Assembly (NCBI GenBank): GCA_964016885.1
Contig: OZ024742.1
Coordinates: 112,406,001 to 112,470,000 of the forward strand
DNA length: 64,000 nucleotides
Direction of reading: 5' to 3'
DNA from: Eledone cirrhosa
Taxonomy: Eukaryota
Under the pieces are notes generated by a model that saw nothing but the letters and a program-made list of their open reading frames with translations, did no database searches and was not told where the DNA came from. The translations under genes were made by a program, and so were the position numbers. This document shows positions 11,444 to 55,518 of the stretch, piece by piece; the stretch's first letter is position 1; every line of letters begins with the position of its first letter.

Positions 11444-11863
11444 ACATTCGATTCGTTTGCAATTATGCTAACAAACCTCATTGTTAAAGCCATATCAATA
11501 GCATGAACCCCTCATTTTTGGTCTTGTGTTGACATGTAGGAAACTGACCGGCCAGTCTGCTGATGTGCAAACCTGTCTGATCAGTCGATCTGCTACTAGT
11601 CAGATCTGACTGATCAGCCATTCTGCTAATATGCACATCAGGTCGATCAGTCACTGTATATTTTAGAAAATAGCATAGATTTTCACTAGCTCTGACAGTT
11701 GGCAGGTGGACAGTGAATTGTACTGATGAAGGGTGATACCCAGAAATATTAGTTTCTGCAGTTCTGTTTACATGCCAAAACAAGAGCAGGAATGAATGGT
11801 TCCTTCTACTGACATGGCTTTAAACATGAGGCGTGTTTTCATAATTGCAAACGAATCGAATGT
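11444..11863. mobile_element. MITE with terminal inverted repeats and TA flanks
   Basis: acattcgattcgtttgcaattatg / cataattgcaaacgaatcgaatgt, extending imperfectly to ~80 bp; TA on each side; internal ~32-bp repeats. Confidence 0.8.
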
Positions 11864-23671: not shown

Positions 23672-26600
23672 TTAATTGTAAGTTGTGATGTTGCTGTTCC
23701 ACTCATATTTTCTATTTAATTTTGGTTGTAATTCTTTTATGTTTACTGCCTCTGTAATTTGTCTAAACATTGCATCTTTTCTATGTGTAGATTCTATTTT
23801 TATTTCTATGTTCTCTAATTTACCCTTGTGTTCTATCTTAGCATGTTCGTAGAGTACAGATGATTCTTTATTATCTTGAAGGTCTCGCCAGTGTTCATTT
23901 ATCCGTTCCGCTATACTACGAGCTGTCTCACCTATGTACACTATATTTTTGTTTCTACATTGTCCTTCAGTACATCTTATGCTATACACTACATTTCTAG
24001 TTTTACAGTTAATATGGGGGCTCGTTTTACAGGTTATACATTTCTTATCTATATATGAGGGTCTTGGGAACGGGTATGTTTTGCTAATAAGTTTTTTTAC
24101 GGAGGTACCTGGTCTTTCTACTATCTTAATATTGAGTTTATGTTTATTTAGGGCCCTTCTAAATGTGTAGGCTAGTTCGCCTCTAGGGGTTGTATTGATG
24201 AACATTACACTCTGGTATTTATTGCTATCATACCATGAGTTTATTCTATTGGCCTTGTTCCTCGTTCTTTCTATTCTATTCCAAAATTTGCTCCTATACA
24301 AGGGGCAGGTCCCATTTATGTCATTATTTACCATTTTTTCCCATTTGGTTCTGGCTCCTCTATACACTCTGATTCTATCTCTCTGATTGTAGCCAGAGAA
24401 CTGCATACGGTGGATGAAGTGTTGTATGTGTCTCTCTAGTTCTTCGGGGTTGCACATGCGGGACACATTTCTCATCACCCGTACCAAATCCGCAATCAGT
24501 ATGTTGATTTTGGTATGGTCCGAAATGGCCGAGTTTCGGTGGCTCAGATGTTTGGAAGTCATGGGTTTGGCATAATGGGAATGGAGGATTTGTTTTTAGT
24601 TGTTAATGGTATCTAACCAGAGCTCTGTGTCTAGTACAGGTAATCGATGGTTGGGGTGTCTACTTGGGTAGTCTATAGTAACTCTAATGCTCTGGTGGAT
24701 TGAGTTTGCTATTTGCTGGATGCTTTCCATTGTGTTTTTCTCTAGTTCCTGACTGTTCTCTAGTGGGGGTGTCTTAACTACAATGTTTATATCATCTACG
24801 TAGCGGGAGTACATTATCAGGTTTAAGCTGTCTTCTAATTGTTCTTTAAGTTTAAGTTTAAGTCTACTGTCCCACCATACCATGAATAAGTTAGCTATGT
24901 CGCCTGCAATGCTAACACCAATGGCTGCTCCTTCCTCTTGGGCATATGTTTTTCCATTAAATTTGAACATATGTTCCTTAAGGGTTAATTTTATGCTGGC
25001 CCCTACCGCATGTGCAATATTTTTCTTCAGTTCATTGTGGTTTTCGGGTGTCCGTATGGCTCTGGTCCACCCGTTCCATCTATCTGTGTGGGTTTTCTTT
25101 GCCATTGAGGTAATGGTAGGTGGTCTGCCTCTTGCTGGTCTTGTAGGGCACAGGTTGCTAAGGTCATAAGTGTCTAGGTAACTATTACTATGGGTAAGCT
25201 TAAGTAGAAGTCCCAGCTCACTGGTATCAATCCCACGGAACTCAACCTTGCTCTCACTGATCATTTCTACGCATTTCTCCACAGCAAAATCCACGTCAAT
25301 AGATGGATACAGGGACACAACATCCATACTGCCTATTATGCTGTTTGTTAGGTCCCCAGATCGGTTACTCACGCCGATTCTGCTGAGGAGGTCCTCCGTG
25401 CTGTCACACATCTGGGGACATCTCAATGATGGGGCGTATGATCAGGGAGAGGAAGTAGGACAGTCTGTAGTTACTAGCAATGTTAGCTCCACAGACTGGC
25501 CGTGTTGGTGGTCCCGCGACAGGGTCACAACCCGTTTTATGGTCTTTTCGAAGCCCATACAACGCCGGCACGTCATTGTTTCAGGCCTGGAAGTTGTTGG
25601 CAGTCCTTTTGTTGGGCTGCATTATATTCGACCACATCGCCATATGGGCATTGAGGGCTTTTTCTCTATCCTCATGCTCCTGTGGTGTTACCTCTCTTGT
25701 GTTAGTGATGTGGGGTTGCATTTCCTGGATGTAGTTTGGCAGGCTGTCAACCGACATTCTGCTGGAAAGCATGCTATCTCTCCATTACGTGAGCGCTGCA
25801 TGAGCTTAGGCAAGCCATTTGCAGATTTTTCTCCCAGTTGCTGGGCCTCTATTCTATTATGCTTCTTGCTATACTGTTCTATAATATTTCTAAGTTCGGA
25901 TCTAGCTATACTAAATTGTACTTATGTTTGTTCATCGACCTGCGACGGCAACTGCGTGCGTTTGTTAAATGGTAAAGTCGTGGCGTGGACTCGTCGCAGG
26001 TCGAATGATTTATCGGAGGGATTATAAAACGGAGAGTTCCAGGCTAGTGCTATTGTTATTGTTAGTTGTGTTGTTTCTATTTCTATTTCCACCAACAGTC
26101 TCATGGTTGTTTCTATGTCTCTCATAATTACTCCTGTCTCTTTCCACTGGCTCAATGTTGTTATCTACCCTATTTTGTGTGTCTGTGTGTTCGTCTTGGT
26201 TATTCTCTTTGTCCTTAGTCTCCCTTCTCCTTTTCCTTTTAATCCTATTACTTTCCCTTATTTCTGTGATTTCTGTGCTACTGTCATTACTTGTTTTCTG
26301 TGTCTGTGTGTTTGTTAAGATTGTGGTGGTGGTGAGAGGCATTGAATGCGTGTGTGTTGTTGTTGTTGATGTGTGCTGTTGTTGATGTGTGTTGTTGTTG
26401 TCTCCGTGTGTGTTATCGTTGTCGTGTGTGTTGTTATTGTTGTTTGTGTCTGCGTGTCTGTCGTTGTTGTTTCTGGGTATGTTGCTATTGTTGTTGTTGT
26501 TGATGTGTGTGTTGTTGTTATTGTTGTTTGTGTCTGCGTGTCTGTTGTTGTTGGGATGTGTGTTGTATATGTGTGTGCGTATATTGTTGCTTTTGTTTTT

Positions 26601-35462: not shown

Positions 35463-35540
<78 letters not shown>

Positions 35541-35680
35541 TGCTACTGTACGTCTGTATACATATATGTATATACGTATACACACATACTTACATTTAAG
35601 TAAGTGCCGTACTAAGAGTGAGAAATGAAATTTCGTTTTCATTTTATATATATATATATATAAATATATATGTGTGTGTG

Positions 35681-36430
<750 letters not shown>

Positions 36431-40666: not shown

Positions 40667-41247
40667 ATAAATCAGGAAAGAAGGTTTACATGGTTTGCTA
40701 TACAAAAAAGTTTTTATTCACATAGCTTACATTTGTTTCACTGAACTGGTCTGTCTAGAGATCGCTATCCGCTTAATTTTGCGTCATTCGATCGCCAATA
40801 CAGAATTATAACCAGTCAGATCCTCGGAGCATGCGAGAATGAAGAAAATACACAGGCAAGAAAAGAAAAGAAAATATGGAGTAGTTATGGCATTCAATTA
40901 GAACAATAACAACAACAATTATTACAACAATGCTATCAATAAACTACCTAAGTAATGTCAGGGTCTCCTTAAATAGTTTATTGATAGCATTGTTGTAATA
41001 ATTGCTGTTGTTATTGTTCTAATTGAATGCCATAACTACTCCATATTTTCTTTTCTTTTCTTGCCTGTGTATTTTCTTCATTCTCGCATGCTCCGAGGAT
41101 CTGACTGGTTATAATTCTGTATTGGCGATCGAATGACGCAAAATTAAGCGGATAGCGATCTCTAGACAGACCAGTTCAGTGAAACAAATGTAAGCTATGT
41201 GAATAAAAACTTTTTTGTATAGCAAACCATGTAAACCTTCTTTCCTG

Positions 41248-41253
<6 letters not shown>
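40667..41253. repeat. Near-perfect foldback: 280-bp arms, 27-nt spacer, HHR in each arm
   Basis: 40667-40946 / 40974-41253; one mismatch seen by eye. Confidence 0.95.
41090..41195 (+). ncRNA. Type I hammerhead ribozyme, C4 variant, long stem II (mirror copy 40725-40830, minus)
   Basis: gct-CCGAGGA-t.ctga.ctggt..accag.t.tcag.t-GAAA-caaatg-TA-agc followed by AATAAA. Confidence 0.72.
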
Positions 41254-41307
<54 letters not shown>

Positions 41308-41395
41308 GGGAGAGAGAGACAGACACAGAGACAGATCGAGAAAGAAAGAGATAATGTGTGAAGAGAGAGATACAAAGAAACTATGTGACAGATAA

Positions 41396-41448
<53 letters not shown>

Positions 41449-41449
41449 A

Positions 41450-41940
41450 AATGTAAGTATGTATGTATACTTACATACATATATGTATACAGACATACAG
41501 TAGTATGTATATATATACATACATGCACACACATATATATATATATATATGCATGTATCGGTTTACCGAACATTTATTCGGTTTGTTTGTAAACAAACAG
41601 CCGAATTGTGCCGTACAGTGTTTGGGCAACCACGTTACATTTTTGTTCAACGCTGACACAGGAACGATGTACTAGTTTCAAGCTTATTAGCTATCGTCAG
41701 CATCGTATACCTTCCTGCCAGATGATTGAACGTCTGAAAGTAAATACTTTCTTTGTGCATATTAATGGCTGAGCAGCCTAATTTGCATATCGAGTTTAGT
41801 CTGCCGGGCCCACCGAAAACGATAAATCGAATAGAATGAAACGAAATTTCATTTCTCACTCTTAGTACGGCAGTTACTTAAATGTAAGTATGTATGTATA
41901 TGTACATCCATATAATTATACAGACGTATAGTAGTATGTG
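41450..41940 (-). mobile_element. 431-bp retrozyme-like monomer with ~60-bp direct terminal repeat
   Basis: atgtaagtatgtatgtata..tatacagac..agtagtatg at 41451 and 41882; partial inverse copy at 35540-35645. Confidence 0.8.
41665..41705 (-). ncRNA. Minimal type I hammerhead ribozyme
   Basis: cgatg-CTGACGA-t.agct.aata.agct.t-GAAA-ctag-TA-catcg; perfect stems; ACTAGT palindrome. Confidence 0.92.
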
Positions 41941-41942
41941 TG

Positions 41943-42009
<67 letters not shown>

Positions 42010-42119
42010 GCGCCAATTACTACTACTTACCGCTCCCCCCACCGCCAGAGGTGACTTTCGACCATGTGCCGTGTGTGTGTATCCACATGTGGGCGTATAT
42101 GGAATTGTGTGTATGAGTG

Positions 42120-47109: not shown

Positions 47110-47508
47110 TATATTAATAAGAGGAATTCCAACTTTGTCTGATTTACTCGTTTTATTTCCAATCCTTTAAAATATATATAATATGGTATTATATTGAAAT
47201 AGTATGATAGAATATTAAATTCTAAGTGTTAATTGAACAAGTACTTTCATGCTTTCGCAATCTTCAGGTTCATGATATGTGGTGACAGTCGAGTTTGCAA
47301 TTTTCAACTGTTGAAAATTGCAAACTCGACTGTCACCACATATCATGAACCTGAAGATTGCGAAAGCATGAAAGTACTTGTTCAATTAACACTTAGAATT
47401 TAATATTCTATCATACTATTTCATTATAATATCATATTATATATATTTTAAAGGATTGTAAATAAAACGAGTAAATCAGACAAAGTTGGAATTCCTCTTA
47501 TTAATATA
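47110..47508. repeat. Near-perfect palindrome: 199-bp arms, 1-nt centre (47309), HHR in each arm
   Basis: gcaattttcaac-t-gttgaaaattgc at the centre; symmetric to both ends with few mismatches. Confidence 0.95.
47346..47384 (+). ncRNA. Minimal type I hammerhead ribozyme (mirror copy 47234-47272, minus)
   Basis: tgaac-CTGAAGA-t.tgc.gaaa.gca.t-GAAA-gtac-TT-gttca; AGTACT palindrome. Confidence 0.88.
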
Positions 47509-50014: not shown

Positions 50015-53000
50015 ATAAGACGGCGGTAACTACGGTGGAGTAAATTAGTTGAATTTGTATGAGTTATCGAAAGTTCTATATAATATTCTTTAAATCGGTG
50101 TGTAGGAAAAGGACCCCTCTGTCAAAGGAGGTTGTTTTTTTAACTGTATCTCGCCCCCATGAGAGCTAAATTTGCATTTATTTACAATCATAACACCAAC
50201 ATTTTGTTTTAGAAAAACATGGCGGACAAAAGAAATTGTCCACAGGGAGGAACAGCAAGTTCCTTGGAGCGTGGAACAGCAATTTCCACCTAATCATAAG
50301 GCAACGTAAAAAAACAAGAGAGACAACAGCGACAGCGACGGTGGTAGTTACAACAGCAGCAGCTACTGGAACAGTAGTAGCAGAAGTGGAAATTACAACG
50401 AAAACGTCCATGCGTTAGAAAAATCAAACAACACCACCACCACCACGACCCCAATAACAACAATAACAACAGCAGTAGCCATAAAGAACCGAAAGAACAA
50501 CAACTATAACAGCAGCAAAACAGACGGGGAAAAACAATAACGACGGCAACAAAGATAAAAATAGTGATGAGTCGACACAAATCAAATCAAACACATCTTT
50601 TGATAAAGCGACAAACAATTTTGAACAAGTACACATCACTAACGAAGAGATAAAAGAAGCAGAGGTCTTGGTTAAAAAAACCGGACACAGGGTATGTCTC
50701 ACCCGCCCTGCTGAGATAATGAGAAACAAGCTTTTGTATTCGGTCAGTTATCGTTCGATCGGATCAAAATCGCGGCAAGTTGAACGGGCAAAAGAGTCAC
50801 AGATCCAAAGAGCTATGGGCACCGTCTGGGAACAGAAAACATATATAGACCGGGGATAGATATATGGCACTGTGGAGTGCTCTTCGCTACACCAGAAGAA
50901 GCCAGAGCATACTCCATTGCGCAACTCCGCAGTGACGAAATCCTAATGATCCCCACATACTGCGGCCAGAGAGTCGTCAGGATTCGAGTGGGCCAAGTTC
51001 CGGCCTCAGTGGAGAAGGCGTGGTTGACCGCGGCCGTCCTCGCTGACGTTGAGGATTCAACAACCATACTCAACGTCATTCGAATAAGACAGGAGAATTG
51101 GACAGGTTCGGGGATCGAGCTAATCATCCAAACAAACCATGAGAGCATTGAGGCCATCCCCGATTTAATGGACCTGGACGACAGCAGACACGTGACTGTC
51201 GAAGGTAGGCGCCCAAGGTGTCATGGATGCATTCTGCCCCAATGTTACCAAAACAGCCAAGCGCCCATCCATTCTCCCCACGCCGTGCCCCGCAACTGGA
51301 GCGGACAAACAAACAAAGACCACAGTGGCAGAAGAGAAATTACCATCCCAAACAACAAAATCACCATATGTTCTACCACCCACGGAGCCAATGCAAAGCA
51401 TACCACTTCCTGATATAGCTAAATCGGACAAAGAGTGCAATAAGGCCGAAGAGTGGAGGACTATTATACAAACAATAGGAATAACTCCCTACCCTCAACC
51501 CCCACAAAAGAGGAAGAAAGAAACCTAAAAAAAAAGAAAATTAAAACTAGCCCACCTCCTCCCCACCATCAACAGCCACCCCCGCACAACCAACTAAACC
51601 ATCACCACCACCACCAACAACAACACCACTACCAACACCGCCACCACCACCACCACCGCCATCCTTAGCATCTAACCCATCGTCACCTCCAACAACACCA
51701 CAGCAAACACAGAAAGCACCAACACACCAACAGCAGACACAATACACAGCCATAGACACAGACAACACAAAGGTTTTAAATTACATTCAACACCACACCA
51801 ACATCACAGAAACAAAGTACGTTCAAACCACCAAAATTGCAACCGATACCTCACACACACATGAAAATAATAAAAATTACACAAACAAATTACATAACAT
51901 TAAAAACAATGTTCCCCACATCAATTGGAGACTACCGAGGGAACATCACCAAAAGAATATTCACGAACATTCTCGTGGAGAAACCCACCAATGATTGGAG
52001 GGATGGAGCACCCACACCCTTCCTAAAGAAGAGCTACAGGTAATTTGTTGTACCTCTCCCCTCTCACTTGTTTTCCTCCTCTCCTAGCCAACATGGCTTC
52101 TTTCAGAATAGGTAGCATAAATGTACGTGGCCTGGGGTCGTCTTGGAATCAGGGCCACCTGCTGAACGATCTCAGGTCGCTAAACATAGGGTAAGTTGGT
52201 GGTACAAGACGTGACCAGCAGAGAAGGACAAGCTTCCAGGCTAGTGGCCCCCTGTGCCCCGACAGGAGCAGGAGAGCCTGAATTCTTCCGGCGTCTGGAG
52301 ACTTTTCTTGGAACGTCCCGCTCTCTAGTGTTAGTGGGCGACTGGAACGGGTTCTTAGATGCACGCTGGGTTTGTGCGAGATTAGCGGATAGAAGAGGAG
52401 GGTGCAAACCTGCTCAGACAGTTTCAACTGTCTGACAGGTACCGTCTTGATTTCCAGAATGTGCCAATGTGGACATGGACAAAGCGCGTCGGGTCATCCA
52501 GATCATATCTAGATAGGGTATTTTGTAGAGAAATAGATAGGTCTAGCATAGGCTGTCCACATTTCAAAATATTCGACTACACGGACCAAAAATTCGTAAT
52601 CTGTGAGCTTGACTTAGATAGTCTTCATAGACAGAGACCCGGCTACTGGAAGCTAAACGCGTCTTTAACTGCGCGCAAGGCCTACAGAGACCGGATTAGC
52701 GAACTAGTTAAGTGAGCGTTGACGGGGAACATCAACAACAAATGGTGGTTTCGTCTGAAAAGAGCGATTAGAATAGAGTCCATTAGGTTTCGTAAGGCTT
52801 TATCAATTGAGAAAAATAGAGCAGGGGGAGAATTAGTTAGAACATTAGACAAGAATTTAGTTAGAAAATTAGACACGACCGACGTACTTGAGGCGAGATT
52901 GGCTCTTGACCAAATCTTCAATGCAAATGACGAAGGCTGCGTGTTCAGAGCTAGGGTGCGTGCTCTCAGACATGAGGGAACGAAGCCGTTCAATGGGCCC

Positions 53001-55518
53001 GAGTGGCGGAGGCGCGTTGTGGCAACAAAGCCACGATCCGGTCTTTGGTGGACAACGACGGGCGCATGCTACACAATTCACTCAGCTGTTCGGGGGCAGC
53101 GGTGGGCCGGATCGAGGGATGCACTCTAGTGCCTACCTCGAAGGACTGCCGCGGCTCTCGGCCACTGAGGCGGAATGTTGCGAAAAGCCGATGACAGCCG
53201 CTGAAGTACGGGAGGTAATGACTGGTTGCAGAAGGGGTAAATCGCCTGGTTTGGATGGTCTGCACTATGAACTTTACTCACAGATGCCAGACCTGTTCGG
53301 AGGCCTCTTGGCGGACGTCTACTGCATCTGGCAACAGAACGGGAGAATGTTCAACTCTGTGAGCCGAGGAGCGGTGGCGCTGCTGAGAAAGGATCCGAAC
53401 AAGGGGGTTAACATATATAATTTCAGGCTAAACACAGAGTTCAAGACTTTGGCCAAGGTGCTAGCAAAGAGGTTGATTCTTGTTGTCGGTAGTCTGGTGG
53501 GAGAGCTGCAGACATCCACCATTCCAGACAGATCCATCCACAACAACCTTCACCTCATGCGATACATAGTGGAGAGGGTAGCTAGGGAACCTGGCACGGG
53601 TGGGTCCTTGACGAATTTAGATCAGTCGAAAGCTTTCGATAGGGGCGACCATCGTTATGTGGCGGCAGTCATGAGGGCGGCTGGCTTTGGGCCCGTTTTC
53701 AGAGGCTGGACCGTTGCCATGCACAGCGATATCTTCTCTGTGGTGAGAGTGGACGGTCACCTTTCGGAACCGTTCAAAATTTTGTGTTCGGTCCGCCAAG
53801 GATGTCCCCTCTCATCCCTCTTGTACGAGCCATTACTGCACAAAATAGAGAGTTTGAGGGTGTCGCGCGCGAACTAGGAGGCGGAAGATCCGTTTCAGCA
53901 TATGCAGACGATATCACGTAGTGGTATCGAACGCCAAACACATCGAGGCGATCGGCACTACACTAAGAGAATACGAAGCGGTGACAGGAGCAATGATCAA
54001 CCAGGAAAAGACGGTGGGCCTGCAGCTCAGCACCTGGAGAGGCAGGTCCATGCCGTCCAACAGCGTCGTCGGGCGCTGGACGGACGGACCGGTTAAATTG
54101 CTAGGGGTCTGGTTCGGCCCGGACCTCCGAACAGACAAACACTGGGACGAGGTGACGAGTAGGGTGGCTTCTCTCACCCAGAAATGGGCAGAGAGGAAGC
54201 TATCCCTGAAAGGTCGACCGTAGGTGGCTAACGCGTACATCGCGTCCGTCATCTAATACCGCCTGACCGTCGTACCTTCACCTAAACCTCGCCTGACTGC
54301 GCTGGAGCGTTTGCTCTTTCGCTTTTTGTGGAAGGGACGCGCTCCGATGGTCAGGCGGTCCATCTGCTGTCAACACCTGCTACGTGGAGGGCTGGGCATG
54401 CCATGGCAGATGATGCTCCGTCACGCGCTCAGGCTATGACATCTCCACCTCATCCTCGACGGTGATCAGGTGTGATCGCCGCTTGCTAGACACGTGTTTC
54501 CCCAGCTCGTTTCATTGAAGGAGCTGCAGCCCTGGGTCAATCGAAGACCGAGAGGGAGCGCTTGGAGACTGTAATGTCTTCAGGCGCTCACAGCCCTCGA
54601 CCAGTCGGGCTATGTGATCCGTGGAAACTCCAATCTCGCGTTCTATAGAGGATTAGTGGAGGGGAAGAGCGACGACGTACTTGGGGAAACGCTAGGCGTC
54701 GACGAAAATCAACTAGCCAATCTCTTCGGAAGAACTTTCGGGCCGGGGCCTATGGACACTTTCCAGAATTCCCTGATCTGGCAGTGCTACCGAGGAGCTT
54801 TGTCAGTTCGGGATAAACTCTACAGACATGGAAGTGCCGTCAGCCGGGTATGTGCGACATGCGCGCAGAGCGACGAAACCGTCCTGCACGCACTCGTCCA
54901 GTGTGCGAGCATTGCTGACTTGCGGGTTTATGTCGAACATCTGCTGTCGCGTGTAGAACGGATGCGACTATCAGCTGAGTCGATCGTGAGGATTGCCCCT
55001 CCCCGCTCTCACTTTAGCCGGGAAAGACAGGCAGTTATTATCTGTCTGGTGACCATGGCGAAATAGATAGTATGGTGGACGCGTCTGAAAGGGCTTTAAG
55101 ACGTGCACCTACCTCTTCAATTATGCCCTGATTAACCTTTTTCAAATTTCACTTGAAAAGGAAAATCAGGGTAGACAGGAAAGTGCTCTCTTCCCAGTAT
55201 TTTTTTGAAAGATGGGTGAGAGAGGCAAGAATGGCTGTAAATTGAAGGTGGAAAACTGGGAGAGGGCACTTTCCCTGGTGGTCAGGGTCACCGTGTTTTT
55301 TTAATTGGTCTTCCCCACGATGGCCCTCGGAAGTCTTGCCCGTATTGTGAAATTTTTCATCGTTTCTTTTTTGTTACATCGTCTGTTTTTTGGGGTTTTT
55401 TTACATGCAGAAATGCCCATTTGTACCGTCCTGTATTGTACTATATTGTCCTATACTGTCCTTAATGTTTTACTACGTGTAAACCCTTGTGGTTACTAAA
55501 TAAATCATTATTATTATA

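What the first reader, a model, noticed from the sequence alone, without database searches (positions are those of the whole stretch)
41450..41940. 431-bp monomer with a textbook minimal hammerhead
Seen: one unit plus ~60-bp terminal redundancy, no ORF, a 41-nt HHR with perfect stems (41665-41705) and ACTAGT stem III. A fragment at 35540-35645 runs from the terminal repeat into the unit body and ends in (TA)n. Inference: the cleanest non-LTR retrozyme candidate here, near the size range known for animals.
Basis: partly seen in the sequence, partly recalled or inferred. Interest (0 to 1): 0.72.

Follow-up and report, generated by a model that had tools for sequence, protein, structure and literature searches.

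The report
Penelope-type hammerhead retrozyme copy
This stretch is one worn copy of a small protein-less jumping repeat present in thousands of copies in this animal genome, which carries a hammerhead motif predicted to cut its own RNA and whose copies are built the way Penelope-like retrotransposons build theirs; it is a further member of a kind already described, not a new kind.

Summary
Window 41448-41939 is a 331-bp body between two copies of a TA-rich terminal repeat 431 bp apart, with no meaningful ORF. A 43-nt minimal type I hammerhead (HHR) lies on the MINUS strand at 41706-41664. The piece at 35540-35645 is a second, tiny insertion.

It belongs to a dispersed family: an exact 24-mer from it occurs 5,708 times in the 3.0-Gb genome, and 0 times for the reversed control. 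I fetched 70 loci chosen only by chromosome position. They show:
- fixed 3' ends at two '..TTTA' sites abutting (TA)n;
- variable 5' ends;
- 36 of 98 arms longer than one unit;
- 34 head-to-head pairs against 2 tail-to-tail.

This is the published Penelope-like (PLE) insertion architecture. No copy continues into an ORF. The HHR has the PLE-type palindromic helix III (ACUAGU). A younger sister subfamily differs in the HHR by only two bases, which are partners of one helix I pair (A-U to U.G).

Not shown: cleavage, circular RNA, and the autonomous partner (none among 70 GIY-YIG loci). 5' ends are not enriched at the cleavage site.

Verdict: a non-autonomous PLE-mobilised retrozyme, a new member of a known kind. 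This scan had already reported sister families (310, 460/467 and 615 bp) elsewhere in this genome.

The parts
41555..41885 (-). Body of the unit. It is 331 nt here and about 348 nt in most copies; this copy carries private deletions of 4, 5 and 8 nt.
   Evidence: 45 genomic matches at 88-92% identity; alignment with 59 full-length copies.
41664..41706 (-). Minimal type I hammerhead motif. The predicted cut follows GUA, between window 41670 and 41669. Helix III is the palindrome ACUAGU.
   Evidence: 0 in 100 shuffles; 38 copies aligned; compensatory helix I change in the sister subfamily.
41448..41554 (-). Terminal repeat (pseudo-LTR part) at the 3' end of the insertion. It starts TA/TG-rich and ends ...CUUACAUUUA directly against the (TA)n at about 41381-41447.
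   Evidence: 35 of 98 arms in the positional sample end at this site.
41879..41939 (-). Upstream copy of the terminal repeat, the remnant of a 5'-truncated preceding unit. It possibly continues through the TA run to about 42005.
   Evidence: 61 nt, 88.5% identical to 41448-41508; inverted pair I5; 18 of 98 arms start at the beginning of the repeat.
41822..41878 (-). Segment that forms the 57-64-nt 'tail' at the 3' end of most other insertions; it is internal here. It contains the hairpin AAUGAAA-UUUCG-UUUCAUU (41853-41835) and the second 3'-end site ..UUCCAUUUA.
   Evidence: 24 terminal against 34 internal occurrences; 63 of 98 arms end here; the 24-mer is found 5,708 times.
35540..35645 (+). 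Separate, strongly 5'-truncated insertion of the same family: terminal repeat plus tail, ending ...UUUUCAUUUUA|(TA)n.
   Evidence: nhmmer E=1e-11 for 35592-35644; 12 such 'repeat + tail' mini arms in the positional sample.
41381..41447 (.). (TA)n microsatellite, the target tract on the 3' side of the insertion.
   Evidence: 49 of 63 tail-type and 22 of 35 repeat-end-type 3' ends abut TA repeats.

Best explanation
Window 41448-41939 is one decayed copy of a high-copy, non-coding retroelement with a period of about 431-446 bp, whose insertions have the architecture of Penelope-like elements and which carries, in the sense strand, a PLE-type minimal hammerhead that is predicted, not shown, to cut its RNA.

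Shown:
- The family is dispersed on many chromosomes.
- The copies have fixed 3' ends, variable 5' ends, more-than-unit tandems and head-to-head two-armed insertions in TA repeats.
- No ORF is present.
- The HHR motif lies on the strand whose 3' end is the fixed one.

Inferred:
1. Multi-unit copies are transcribed.
2. Two HHRs pair through the ACUAGU palindrome and cut out unit-length RNA.
3. This RNA may be ligated into a circle.
4. A PLE reverse transcriptase/GIY-YIG endonuclease supplied in trans nicks a TA (rarely TC) repeat.
5. The nicked DNA anneals to a short complementary patch of the RNA (..UUUA, or ..CUAUUC at TC repeats) and primes cDNA.
6. The cDNA runs on for less or more than one unit.
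7. A second priming event on the other DNA end gives the inverted arm.

The window copy has one HHR only and is likely dead on arrival.
For: Copy number and spread:
- The body has 3,466 first-look candidates, and the 40 scored are 88-92% identical.
- An exact 24-mer occurs 2,861 + 2,847 times, against 0 + 0 for the reversed control.

Architecture in 70 loci taken in positional order on contig C1. The script found 130 arms and kept 117, dropping 13 that were under 45 nt or cut by a locus end.
- 98 arms have one of the two canonical 3' ends: 63 at the tail site and 35 at the end of the terminal repeat. 19 end elsewhere.
- 36 of the 98 are longer than one unit, and 3 are longer than two. One array has at least 10 units.
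- There are 34 head-to-head pairs and 2 tail-to-tail pairs.
- 49 of the 63 tail ends abut TA repeats, and 46 of those lie at position 64. All 3 ends that abut TC repeats lie at position 57, as do 2 further cases.

Match to published PLE features: pseudo-LTRs, partial tandems, an inverted 5'-truncated copy, a short tail, a microsatellite bias and an HHR near the 3' end (PMC8557442, passages; PMC4209133, parts 1-2 of 4).

PLEs are abundant in this genome: GIY-YIG has 10,597 first-look candidates and all 150 scored are over the cut-off. A PLE family with the same HHR layout (U - stem II - U, palindromic 6-mer) about 380 nt behind its GIY-YIG ORF also ends in (TA)n.

HHR:
- The strict descriptor gives 0 hits in 100 shuffles.
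- It lies on the sense strand as defined independently by the fixed 3' ends.
- The majorities of subfamilies A and B differ at 2 of 43 HHR columns against 47 of 298 elsewhere (binomial P=0.025). The two changes are the partners of one helix I pair, A-U to U.G.

Li et al. 2026 (bioRxiv 10.64898/2026.07.22.740005; abstract and Results part 1) argue that animal retrozymes are non-autonomous PLE derivatives.
Against: - No autonomous partner was found. Among 70 GIY-YIG loci (30 + 40), the family profile hit only two, L055 and L202. Both are separate insertions 1-1.3 kb from the ORF.
- The resemblance of the tail to the 3' region of the L060-type PLE is not significant: 30 of 500 shuffles score as well.
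- There is no evidence of cleavage. 5' ends are not enriched at the predicted cut: 5 of 98 lie within 215-227, against 2.9 expected. Most arms run straight through the site.
- Rfam's hammerhead models do not match.
- The closing pair of helix II is not the G10.1-C11.1 that PMC4209133 calls highly conserved.
- The isolated 61-nt stretch folds no better than shuffles (z = -0.82).
- Within the family the HHR is not specially conserved: 97.6% against 94.9% overall, with other segments at 98-99%.
- If substitutions alone are counted, the A/B contrast is weaker: 2 of 43 against about 31 of the non-indel columns. The changes are also clustered.
- Units within one arm are 93.7-96.5% alike against 90.3% between arms, which does not separate a circular from a multimeric template.
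- PMC4209133 reports low in vitro activity for such minimal HHRs.
Confidence: 0.78

Rival explanations
1. It is a classical metazoan non-LTR retrozyme: tandem repeats whose efficient hammerhead makes abundant circular RNA, spread by an unspecified (LINE-type) machinery and independent of PLEs.
For: - The unit size and non-coding tandem units fit PMC7229834 (passages).
- Arrays of up to at least 10 units exist (L156).
- The whole unit folds far better than shuffles, z = -6.7.
Against: - The HHR is the minimal PLE type, without a stable helix III and without an Rfam match.
- Most insertions are 0.3-2 units, with inverted arms joined 5' to 5' (34 against 2) and TA-repeat targets. These are PLE hallmarks.
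- The opposite strand folds equally well, z = -6.9.
Confidence: 0.08
2. It is only the terminal repeat (solo pseudo-LTR or 3' remnant) of an autonomous, ORF-bearing PLE, not a family of its own.
For: Published surveys find most minimal HHRs as single motifs, probably truncated PLEs (PMC4209133). Two copies lie within 1.3 kb of a GIY-YIG ORF.
Against: - 36 of 98 arms exceed one unit, and each continues into another copy of the same unit, never into coding sequence.
- All 29 further HHR-anchored loci are the same non-coding unit.
- The two ORF-proximal copies are separate insertions, one in opposite orientation and one inside its own TA tract.
Confidence: 0.05
3. The element is PLE-mobilised, but the hammerhead is a passenger with no role in its spread, or does not cleave. 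On this view the motif 'parasitises' the element, as Craig et al. suggest may be the case for PLE HHRs.
For: - There is no excess of 5' ends at the cut site.
- Conservation inside the family is not special.
- HHR-less Naiads proliferate well (PMC8557442).
- In vitro activity is low (PMC4209133).
Against: Two subfamilies about 16% apart keep the core unchanged, and their only two HHR differences restore one helix I pair. The motif is in the sense orientation.
Confidence: 0.2
4. It is a DNA-level satellite or tandem repeat that happens to contain a hammerhead-like string.
For: It shows tandem organisation, TA-rich spacers and one array of at least 10 units.
Against: - There are thousands of dispersed short insertions on many contigs, with one fixed end and one variable end.
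- The motif is absent from 100 shuffles.
Confidence: 0.02

Closest known systems
Minimal hammerheads in the pseudo-LTRs of Penelope-like elements (Cervera & de la Pena 2014, PMC4209133; parts 1-2 of 4 read)
   Same: - Type I layout with a short helix I.
- An extra nucleotide between A9 and helix II.
- Helix III reduced to a small palindrome that could pair between two copies.
- Massive genome-wide occurrence, mostly away from full PLEs.
- Dual motifs on opposite strands a few hundred bp apart.
   Different: - The closing pair of helix II is A-U, flanked by U and U, rather than G10.1-C11.1.
- Helix II has 4 pairs rather than 6-8.
- The carrier is a self-standing 431-446-bp non-coding unit, not the flank of an ORF.
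Metazoan non-LTR retrozymes (Cervera & de la Pena 2020, PMC7229834, passages; Li et al. 2026, bioRxiv 10.64898/2026.07.22.740005, abstract and Results part 1)
   Same: - Non-coding, AT-rich, tandem-prone units of a few hundred bp, each with one type I HHR.
- Monomers, dimers and multimers dispersed in the genome.
- A proposed PLE origin.
   Different: - Published retrozymes were defined by canonical HHRs with loop-loop contacts, and circular RNAs were shown for them. Here the HHR is minimal and no RNA data exist.
- The unit is slightly above the 170-400-nt range of the 2020 paper, but inside the 51-972 bp range of the 2026 preprint.
Canonical C-terminal-EN PLE insertion unit (Craig et al. 2021, PMC8557442, passages)
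   Same: Partial tandems forming pseudo-LTRs, an inverted 5'-truncated copy, a short extension ('tail') at one end, an HHR near the 3' end and a (TA)n insertion bias.
   Different: - It has no RT/EN ORF.
- The tail is 57-64 nt rather than 30-40.
- The 3' ends fall at two discrete sites.
Other hammerhead/PLE repeat families of this same genome reported earlier in this scan (310, 460/467 and 615-bp units; notes e1-8802758, e1-8803865, e1-9506240; unchecked AI notes)
   Same: The same genome, the same two-armed and more-than-unit insertion shapes in TA repeats, and the same proposed PLE dependence.
   Different: - The unit sequence and HHR are different.
- In this family I found no excess of copy ends at the predicted cut site.

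Membership tests
Hammerhead ribozyme (type I, minimal PLE variant) | Conserved core: C3 U4 G5 A6 N7 G8 A9, G12 A13 A14, A15.1-U16.1, H17 not G | tested here: met
   CUGACGA ... GAA A....U A at window 41706-41664, minus strand. The core is intact in 73 of 86 family copies of the positional sample.
Hammerhead ribozyme (type I, minimal PLE variant) | Helices I and II formed, supported by covariation | tested here: met
   Helix I has 6 bp and helix II has 4 bp. There is one two-sided change, A-U to U.G, in helix I between subfamilies A and B. This is a single event only.
Hammerhead ribozyme (type I, minimal PLE variant) | [quoted passage not shown] | tested here: inconclusive
   The extra U is present. 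The closing pair is A-U, G-C is the second pair, and a further U precedes G12. The same layout occurs in the HHR of a bona fide PLE of this genome.
Hammerhead ribozyme (type I, minimal PLE variant) | Palindromic helix III or loop 3 allowing a dimeric fold | tested here: met
   ACUAGU is self-complementary. The duplex energy is -4.8 to -6.8 kcal/mol.
Hammerhead ribozyme (type I, minimal PLE variant) | Match to the curated Rfam hammerhead models | tested here: not met
   No hammerhead family at gathering score over the whole window, and none up to E=10 on 41300-42100.
Hammerhead ribozyme (type I, minimal PLE variant) | Self-cleavage at the predicted site | not testable with these tools
   No RNA run was listed. 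DNA copy ends show no excess at the site.
Non-LTR retrozyme | Non-coding tandem units, each with a type I HHR, dispersed as monomers to multimers | tested here: met
   Among locus-strands with an HHR copy, 58 have one, 8 have two, 1 has three and 1 has nine.
Non-LTR retrozyme | Expression as linear and circular unit-length RNA | not testable with these tools
   No RNA holder was listed. The three runs laid are contigs of unknown kind.
Penelope-like element, non-autonomous derivative | PLE insertion architecture: pseudo-LTR or partial tandem, inverted 5'-truncated arm, tail, microsatellite target | tested here: met
   36 of 98 arms over one unit; 34 head-to-head against 2 tail-to-tail; 63 tail ends; TA or TC flanks.
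Penelope-like element, non-autonomous derivative | Sequence shared with an autonomous PLE (usually the 3' end) that supplies RT/EN | tested here: not met
   None of 70 GIY-YIG loci shares sequence with the unit beyond two independent neighbouring insertions. The sample is 70 of at least 10,597 candidates, so this is weak.

The most novel reading that the evidence does not exclude
The copy ends record how a Penelope-type reverse transcriptase starts. It does not begin at an RNA 3' end. It begins where the nicked microsatellite DNA can pair with a short internal patch of a more-than-unit (circular or multimeric) hammerhead RNA.
- At TA repeats, starts fall at two '..UUUA' sites 57-64 nt apart.
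- At TC repeats, starts fall 7 nt further upstream, at '..CUAUUC'.

On this reading the enigmatic PLE 'tail' is simply the interval between alternative start sites. The two-armed insertions are two such starts, one on each end of a single break.
Probability: 0.3. Interest if true: 0.55.

Novelty: new member of a known kind. Interest (0 to 1): 0.34.

Why it matters
It adds one more well-delimited, very abundant family to the small set of animal elements that link hammerhead ribozymes to Penelope-like retrotransposition. It has an older subfamily and a young one.

Its thousands of copies give clean, countable footprints: fixed starts that shift with the target repeat, 5'-to-5' arm joining, and more-than-unit copies. 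These could be used to test how PLE enzymes prime and whether they copy circles.

In the papers I could search, cephalopod repeat annotation does not mention hammerheads. PMC13282606 has 0 occurrences of 'hammerhead' or 'ribozyme' and lists 893 'unclassified SINE' families. Families like this one may therefore sit unrecognised in that bin. I did not test which animal the genome is; the 'octopus-type' label comes from other notes of this scan.

Tried and rejected
- Rfam at gathering score and at E up to 10: no hammerhead. The only hits are microsatellite-driven miRNA look-alikes.
- Folding the 61-nt HHR stretch alone: z = -0.82, uninformative.
- RNA evidence: no RNA holder listed. The three runs laid (X1-X3, one sample, kind unknown) are contigs. 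They showed only that many near-identical copies exist. Their loose ends match private deletions of the window copy rather than other families.
- Earlier findings by sequence and near the window: nothing.
- Partner search: BLAST and an nhmmer family profile against 30 + 40 GIY-YIG loci found only neighbouring independent insertions, L055 and L202. A tblastn of ORFs from the first 30 PLE loci against the 87 family loci held then gave only unrelated neighbouring repeats and spurious ORFs across the unit itself.
- Apparent similarity of the tail to the L060-type PLE 3' region (shared UUUCAUUCUA): not significant, 30 of 500 shuffles.
- 5' ends at the cleavage site: a first small sample suggested 3 near the site. 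The positional sample did not confirm it: 5 of 98 against 2.9 expected. The 5' ends cluster instead at the start of the terminal repeat (18), at 0-24 (11) and at the palindromic hairpin near position 305 (15).
- Within-arm against between-arm unit identity as a test of a circular template: only 3 arms qualified, and the result was not decisive.
- Special conservation of the HHR inside subfamily A: not seen.
- A search for diverged copies with compensatory changes by fuzzy regex timed out. It was replaced by BLAST.
- Literature: no paper on cephalopod hammerhead retrozymes was found with the terms. Supplements of the cited papers were not opened and may list such families.

Full report
**Observation**

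Reading the window shows, on the minus strand from 41939 down to 41448:
- a 61-nt TA-rich repeat;
- a 331-nt body (41885-41555);
- a TA/TG-rich stretch;
- the same repeat again (41508-41448; 88.5% identity, 431 bp apart).

TA microsatellite lies on both sides. No meaningful ORF is present: the longest ATG ORF touching the body is 70 aa, largely in the TA-rich repeat.

The parts are:
- helix I: six perfect pairs;
- helix II: four pairs with an unpaired U on each side;
- helix III: only a self-complementary hexamer;
- predicted cut: after GUA, between 41670 and 41669.

A descriptor of this stringency finds one hit in the window and none in 100 dinucleotide shuffles. I wrote the descriptor after seeing the motif. 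Rfam reports no hammerhead at gathering score or up to E=10. The isolated 61-nt stretch does not fold better than shuffles.

The fragment at 35540-35645 is a separate small insertion on the + strand. It consists of the repeat plus the first ~52 nt of the body and ends in (TA)n.

**A dispersed family**

The body finds 45 matches at 88-92% identity on many contigs of the 3.0-Gb genome, with 3,466 first-look candidates of which 40 were scored. An exact 24-mer from the start of the body occurs 2,861 + 2,847 times, and the reversed control 0 times.

Fifty-nine full-length copies average 95.3% agreement with the column majority and 93.5% pairwise identity. The window copy has private deletions of 4, 5 and 8 nt.

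All 29 further loci fetched with the hammerhead region alone belong to this same non-coding unit.

**Architecture**

To avoid choosing copies by quality, I took the first 100 places of the 24-mer in positional order on contig C1. They form 70 clusters, fetched as L121-L190. I annotated them with a natural reference copy. The script found 130 arms and kept 117; 13 that were under 45 nt or cut by a locus end were dropped.

3' ends:
- 98 of the 117 arms end at one of two sites. 63 end 50-66 nt into the next unit ('tail', ...UUCCAUUUA). 35 end at the end of the repeat (...CUUACAUUUA).
- 19 arms end elsewhere. Some of these are alignment failures in the TA-rich repeat.
- 49 of the 63 tail ends run straight into TA repeats, and 46 of those lie at position 64.
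- The 3 ends that run into TC repeats all lie at position 57 (...CUAUUC|UCUC), as do 2 more seen.

5' ends are spread over the unit, with three clusters:
- 18 at the TA-rich start of the repeat;
- 11 at positions 0-24;
- 15 at a palindromic hairpin near position 305.

Size and arrangement:
- 36 of the 98 arms exceed one unit, and 3 exceed two.
- One array has at least 10 units.
- Close inverted pairs are head-to-head, with 3' ends outward, in 34 cases and tail-to-tail in 2.

The window copy (repeat, one body, repeat end) and the 35.5-kb fragment (repeat plus tail) both fall into recurrent classes, with 3 and 12 arms in the sample.

This set of features is what Craig et al. 2021 describe for Penelope-like elements (PMC8557442, passages): pseudo-LTRs from partial tandems, an inverted 5'-truncated copy, a short tail, a hammerhead near the 3' end and a microsatellite bias.

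The fixed end is the 3' end on the hammerhead strand, so the motif lies in the sense RNA.

**Context of PLEs in this genome**

The GIY-YIG domain has 10,597 first-look candidates, and all 150 scored are over Pfam's cut-off.

One PLE family has, about 380 nt behind its GIY-YIG ORF, a minimal hammerhead of the same layout (U, short stem II, U, GAA, palindromic AGUACU). It ends in (TA)n. I saw it in L060 and in seven of the forty further loci. The same hammerhead occurs as a fold-back pair in the window at 47234-47384.

**Is the hammerhead under constraint?**

Inside subfamily A it is not more conserved than several other segments. Of 86 copies in the positional sample, 26 are identical to the window's 43-mer, 73 keep the core, and 51 keep the core and all helices.

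A copy found near a PLE ORF (L055) led to a sister subfamily B:
- its period is about 422-426 bp;
- it has 1,511 first-look candidates;
- the 40 scored are mostly 96-98% alike, so it is much younger.

After dropping 7 start columns that are an artefact of the query, the majorities of A and B differ at 49 of 341 columns. Two of these fall in the 43 hammerhead columns and 47 in the other 298 (binomial P=0.025). The two hammerhead changes are the partners of one helix I pair, A-U becoming U.G. The commonest B form (17 of 37 bodies) carries both.

This is one covariation event. The contrast weakens if only substitutions are counted, so the support is moderate.

**What is not shown**

- No RNA run was listed. 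The three runs laid are contigs of unknown kind and add nothing on expression.
- Copy 5' ends show no excess at the predicted cut: 5 of 98 against 2.9 expected.
- Unit identity within arms (93.7-96.5%; 3 arms) against between arms (90.3%) does not tell a circular from a multimeric template.
- No autonomous partner was found among 70 GIY-YIG loci. The two profile hits, L055 and L202, are independent neighbouring insertions.
- A short resemblance of the tail to the L060-type 3' region is not significant.

**Explanation**

The locus is one old copy of a non-autonomous element mobilised by a Penelope-type RT/EN. The architecture is shown; the rest of the cycle is inferred, in these steps:
1. Multi-unit copies are transcribed.
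2. Paired hammerheads cut the transcript.
3. The cut RNA may be ligated into a circle.
4. cDNA is primed where the nicked repeat DNA can pair with '..UUUA' (TA targets) or '..CUAUUC' (TC targets).
5. Copying runs past one unit.
6. A second priming event on the other end of the break gives the inverted arm.

With a single hammerhead and three deletions, the window copy itself is likely inert.

**Comparison and novelty**

The hammerhead matches the published minimal PLE type in three respects: the extra nucleotide after A9, the small palindromic helix III and its genome-wide spread. It lacks the usual G10.1-C11.1 closing pair (PMC4209133, parts 1-2).

The carrier matches animal non-LTR retrozymes in being a non-coding tandem-prone unit (PMC7229834, passages). 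It also fits the 2026 proposal that these are non-autonomous PLE sequences (bioRxiv 10.64898/2026.07.22.740005, abstract and Results part 1).

It is therefore a new member of a known kind. Notes of this scan (unchecked AI notes) already report sister families of 310, 460/467 and 615 bp in the same genome, with the same two-armed and more-than-unit shapes.

My searches found no paper on such elements in cephalopods. A 2026 octopus repeat annotation does not mention hammerheads (passage search). I did not test which animal the genome is.

The most interesting residue is the dependence of the 3' start site on the target repeat. If it holds genome-wide, it would explain the PLE 'tail' as alternative internal priming sites.

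Noticed in passing
window 47234-47272 (-) and 47346-47384 (+): Two identical minimal hammerheads (UGAAC CUGAAGA U UGC-GAAA-GCA U GAA AGUACU U GUUCA) lie in a head-to-head fold-back whose arms run out to TA repeats. The same motif lies about 380 nt behind a GIY-YIG ORF in L060 and in 7 of 40 further GIY-YIG loci. This is therefore the 3' end of an autonomous PLE family.
   Followed up: partly
window 40667-40952 and 40968-41253: A 286-nt inverted repeat, 99% complementary, with a 15-nt spacer. Its right arm ends ...CCUGAUUUA directly at the (TA)n that also borders the finding. It looks like a young two-armed insertion of another element.
   Followed up: no
L055, L232-L260 (G000, many contigs): A young sister subfamily of the finding's family: period about 422-426 bp, copies 96-98% alike, arrays of up to 6 units in L251. 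Its hammerhead helix I pair is changed on both sides (A-U to U.G).
   Followed up: partly
window 11715-11764 (+); L041 17-66: A further hammerhead-like motif (GAAUUGUA CUGAUGA ... GAA ... C UGCAGUUC) recurs at a GIY-YIG locus. It was not examined.
   Followed up: no
window 24596-25441 (-), 52873-53877 (+), 54575-55066 (+): Reverse-transcriptase fragments: a weak RVT_1 match below the cut-off, then RVT_1 at 1.5e-10 with zf-RVT downstream. These are other retroelements in the window.
   Followed up: no
window 35790-35816, 36385-36411; L235 just after a subfamily-B insertion: The same 27-nt string, ATATATTTAGAAACACACAGATACATG, borders TA repeats at unrelated loci. It is probably the end of yet another TA-repeat-targeting element.
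   Followed up: no
L121-L190 (positional sample), unit position ~285-305: 15-17 of 98 arm 5' ends sit at the palindromic hairpin GUUUGUUUACAAACAAAC, often as the joint of an inverted pair. This suggests strand switching or snap-back at that hairpin.
   Followed up: partly
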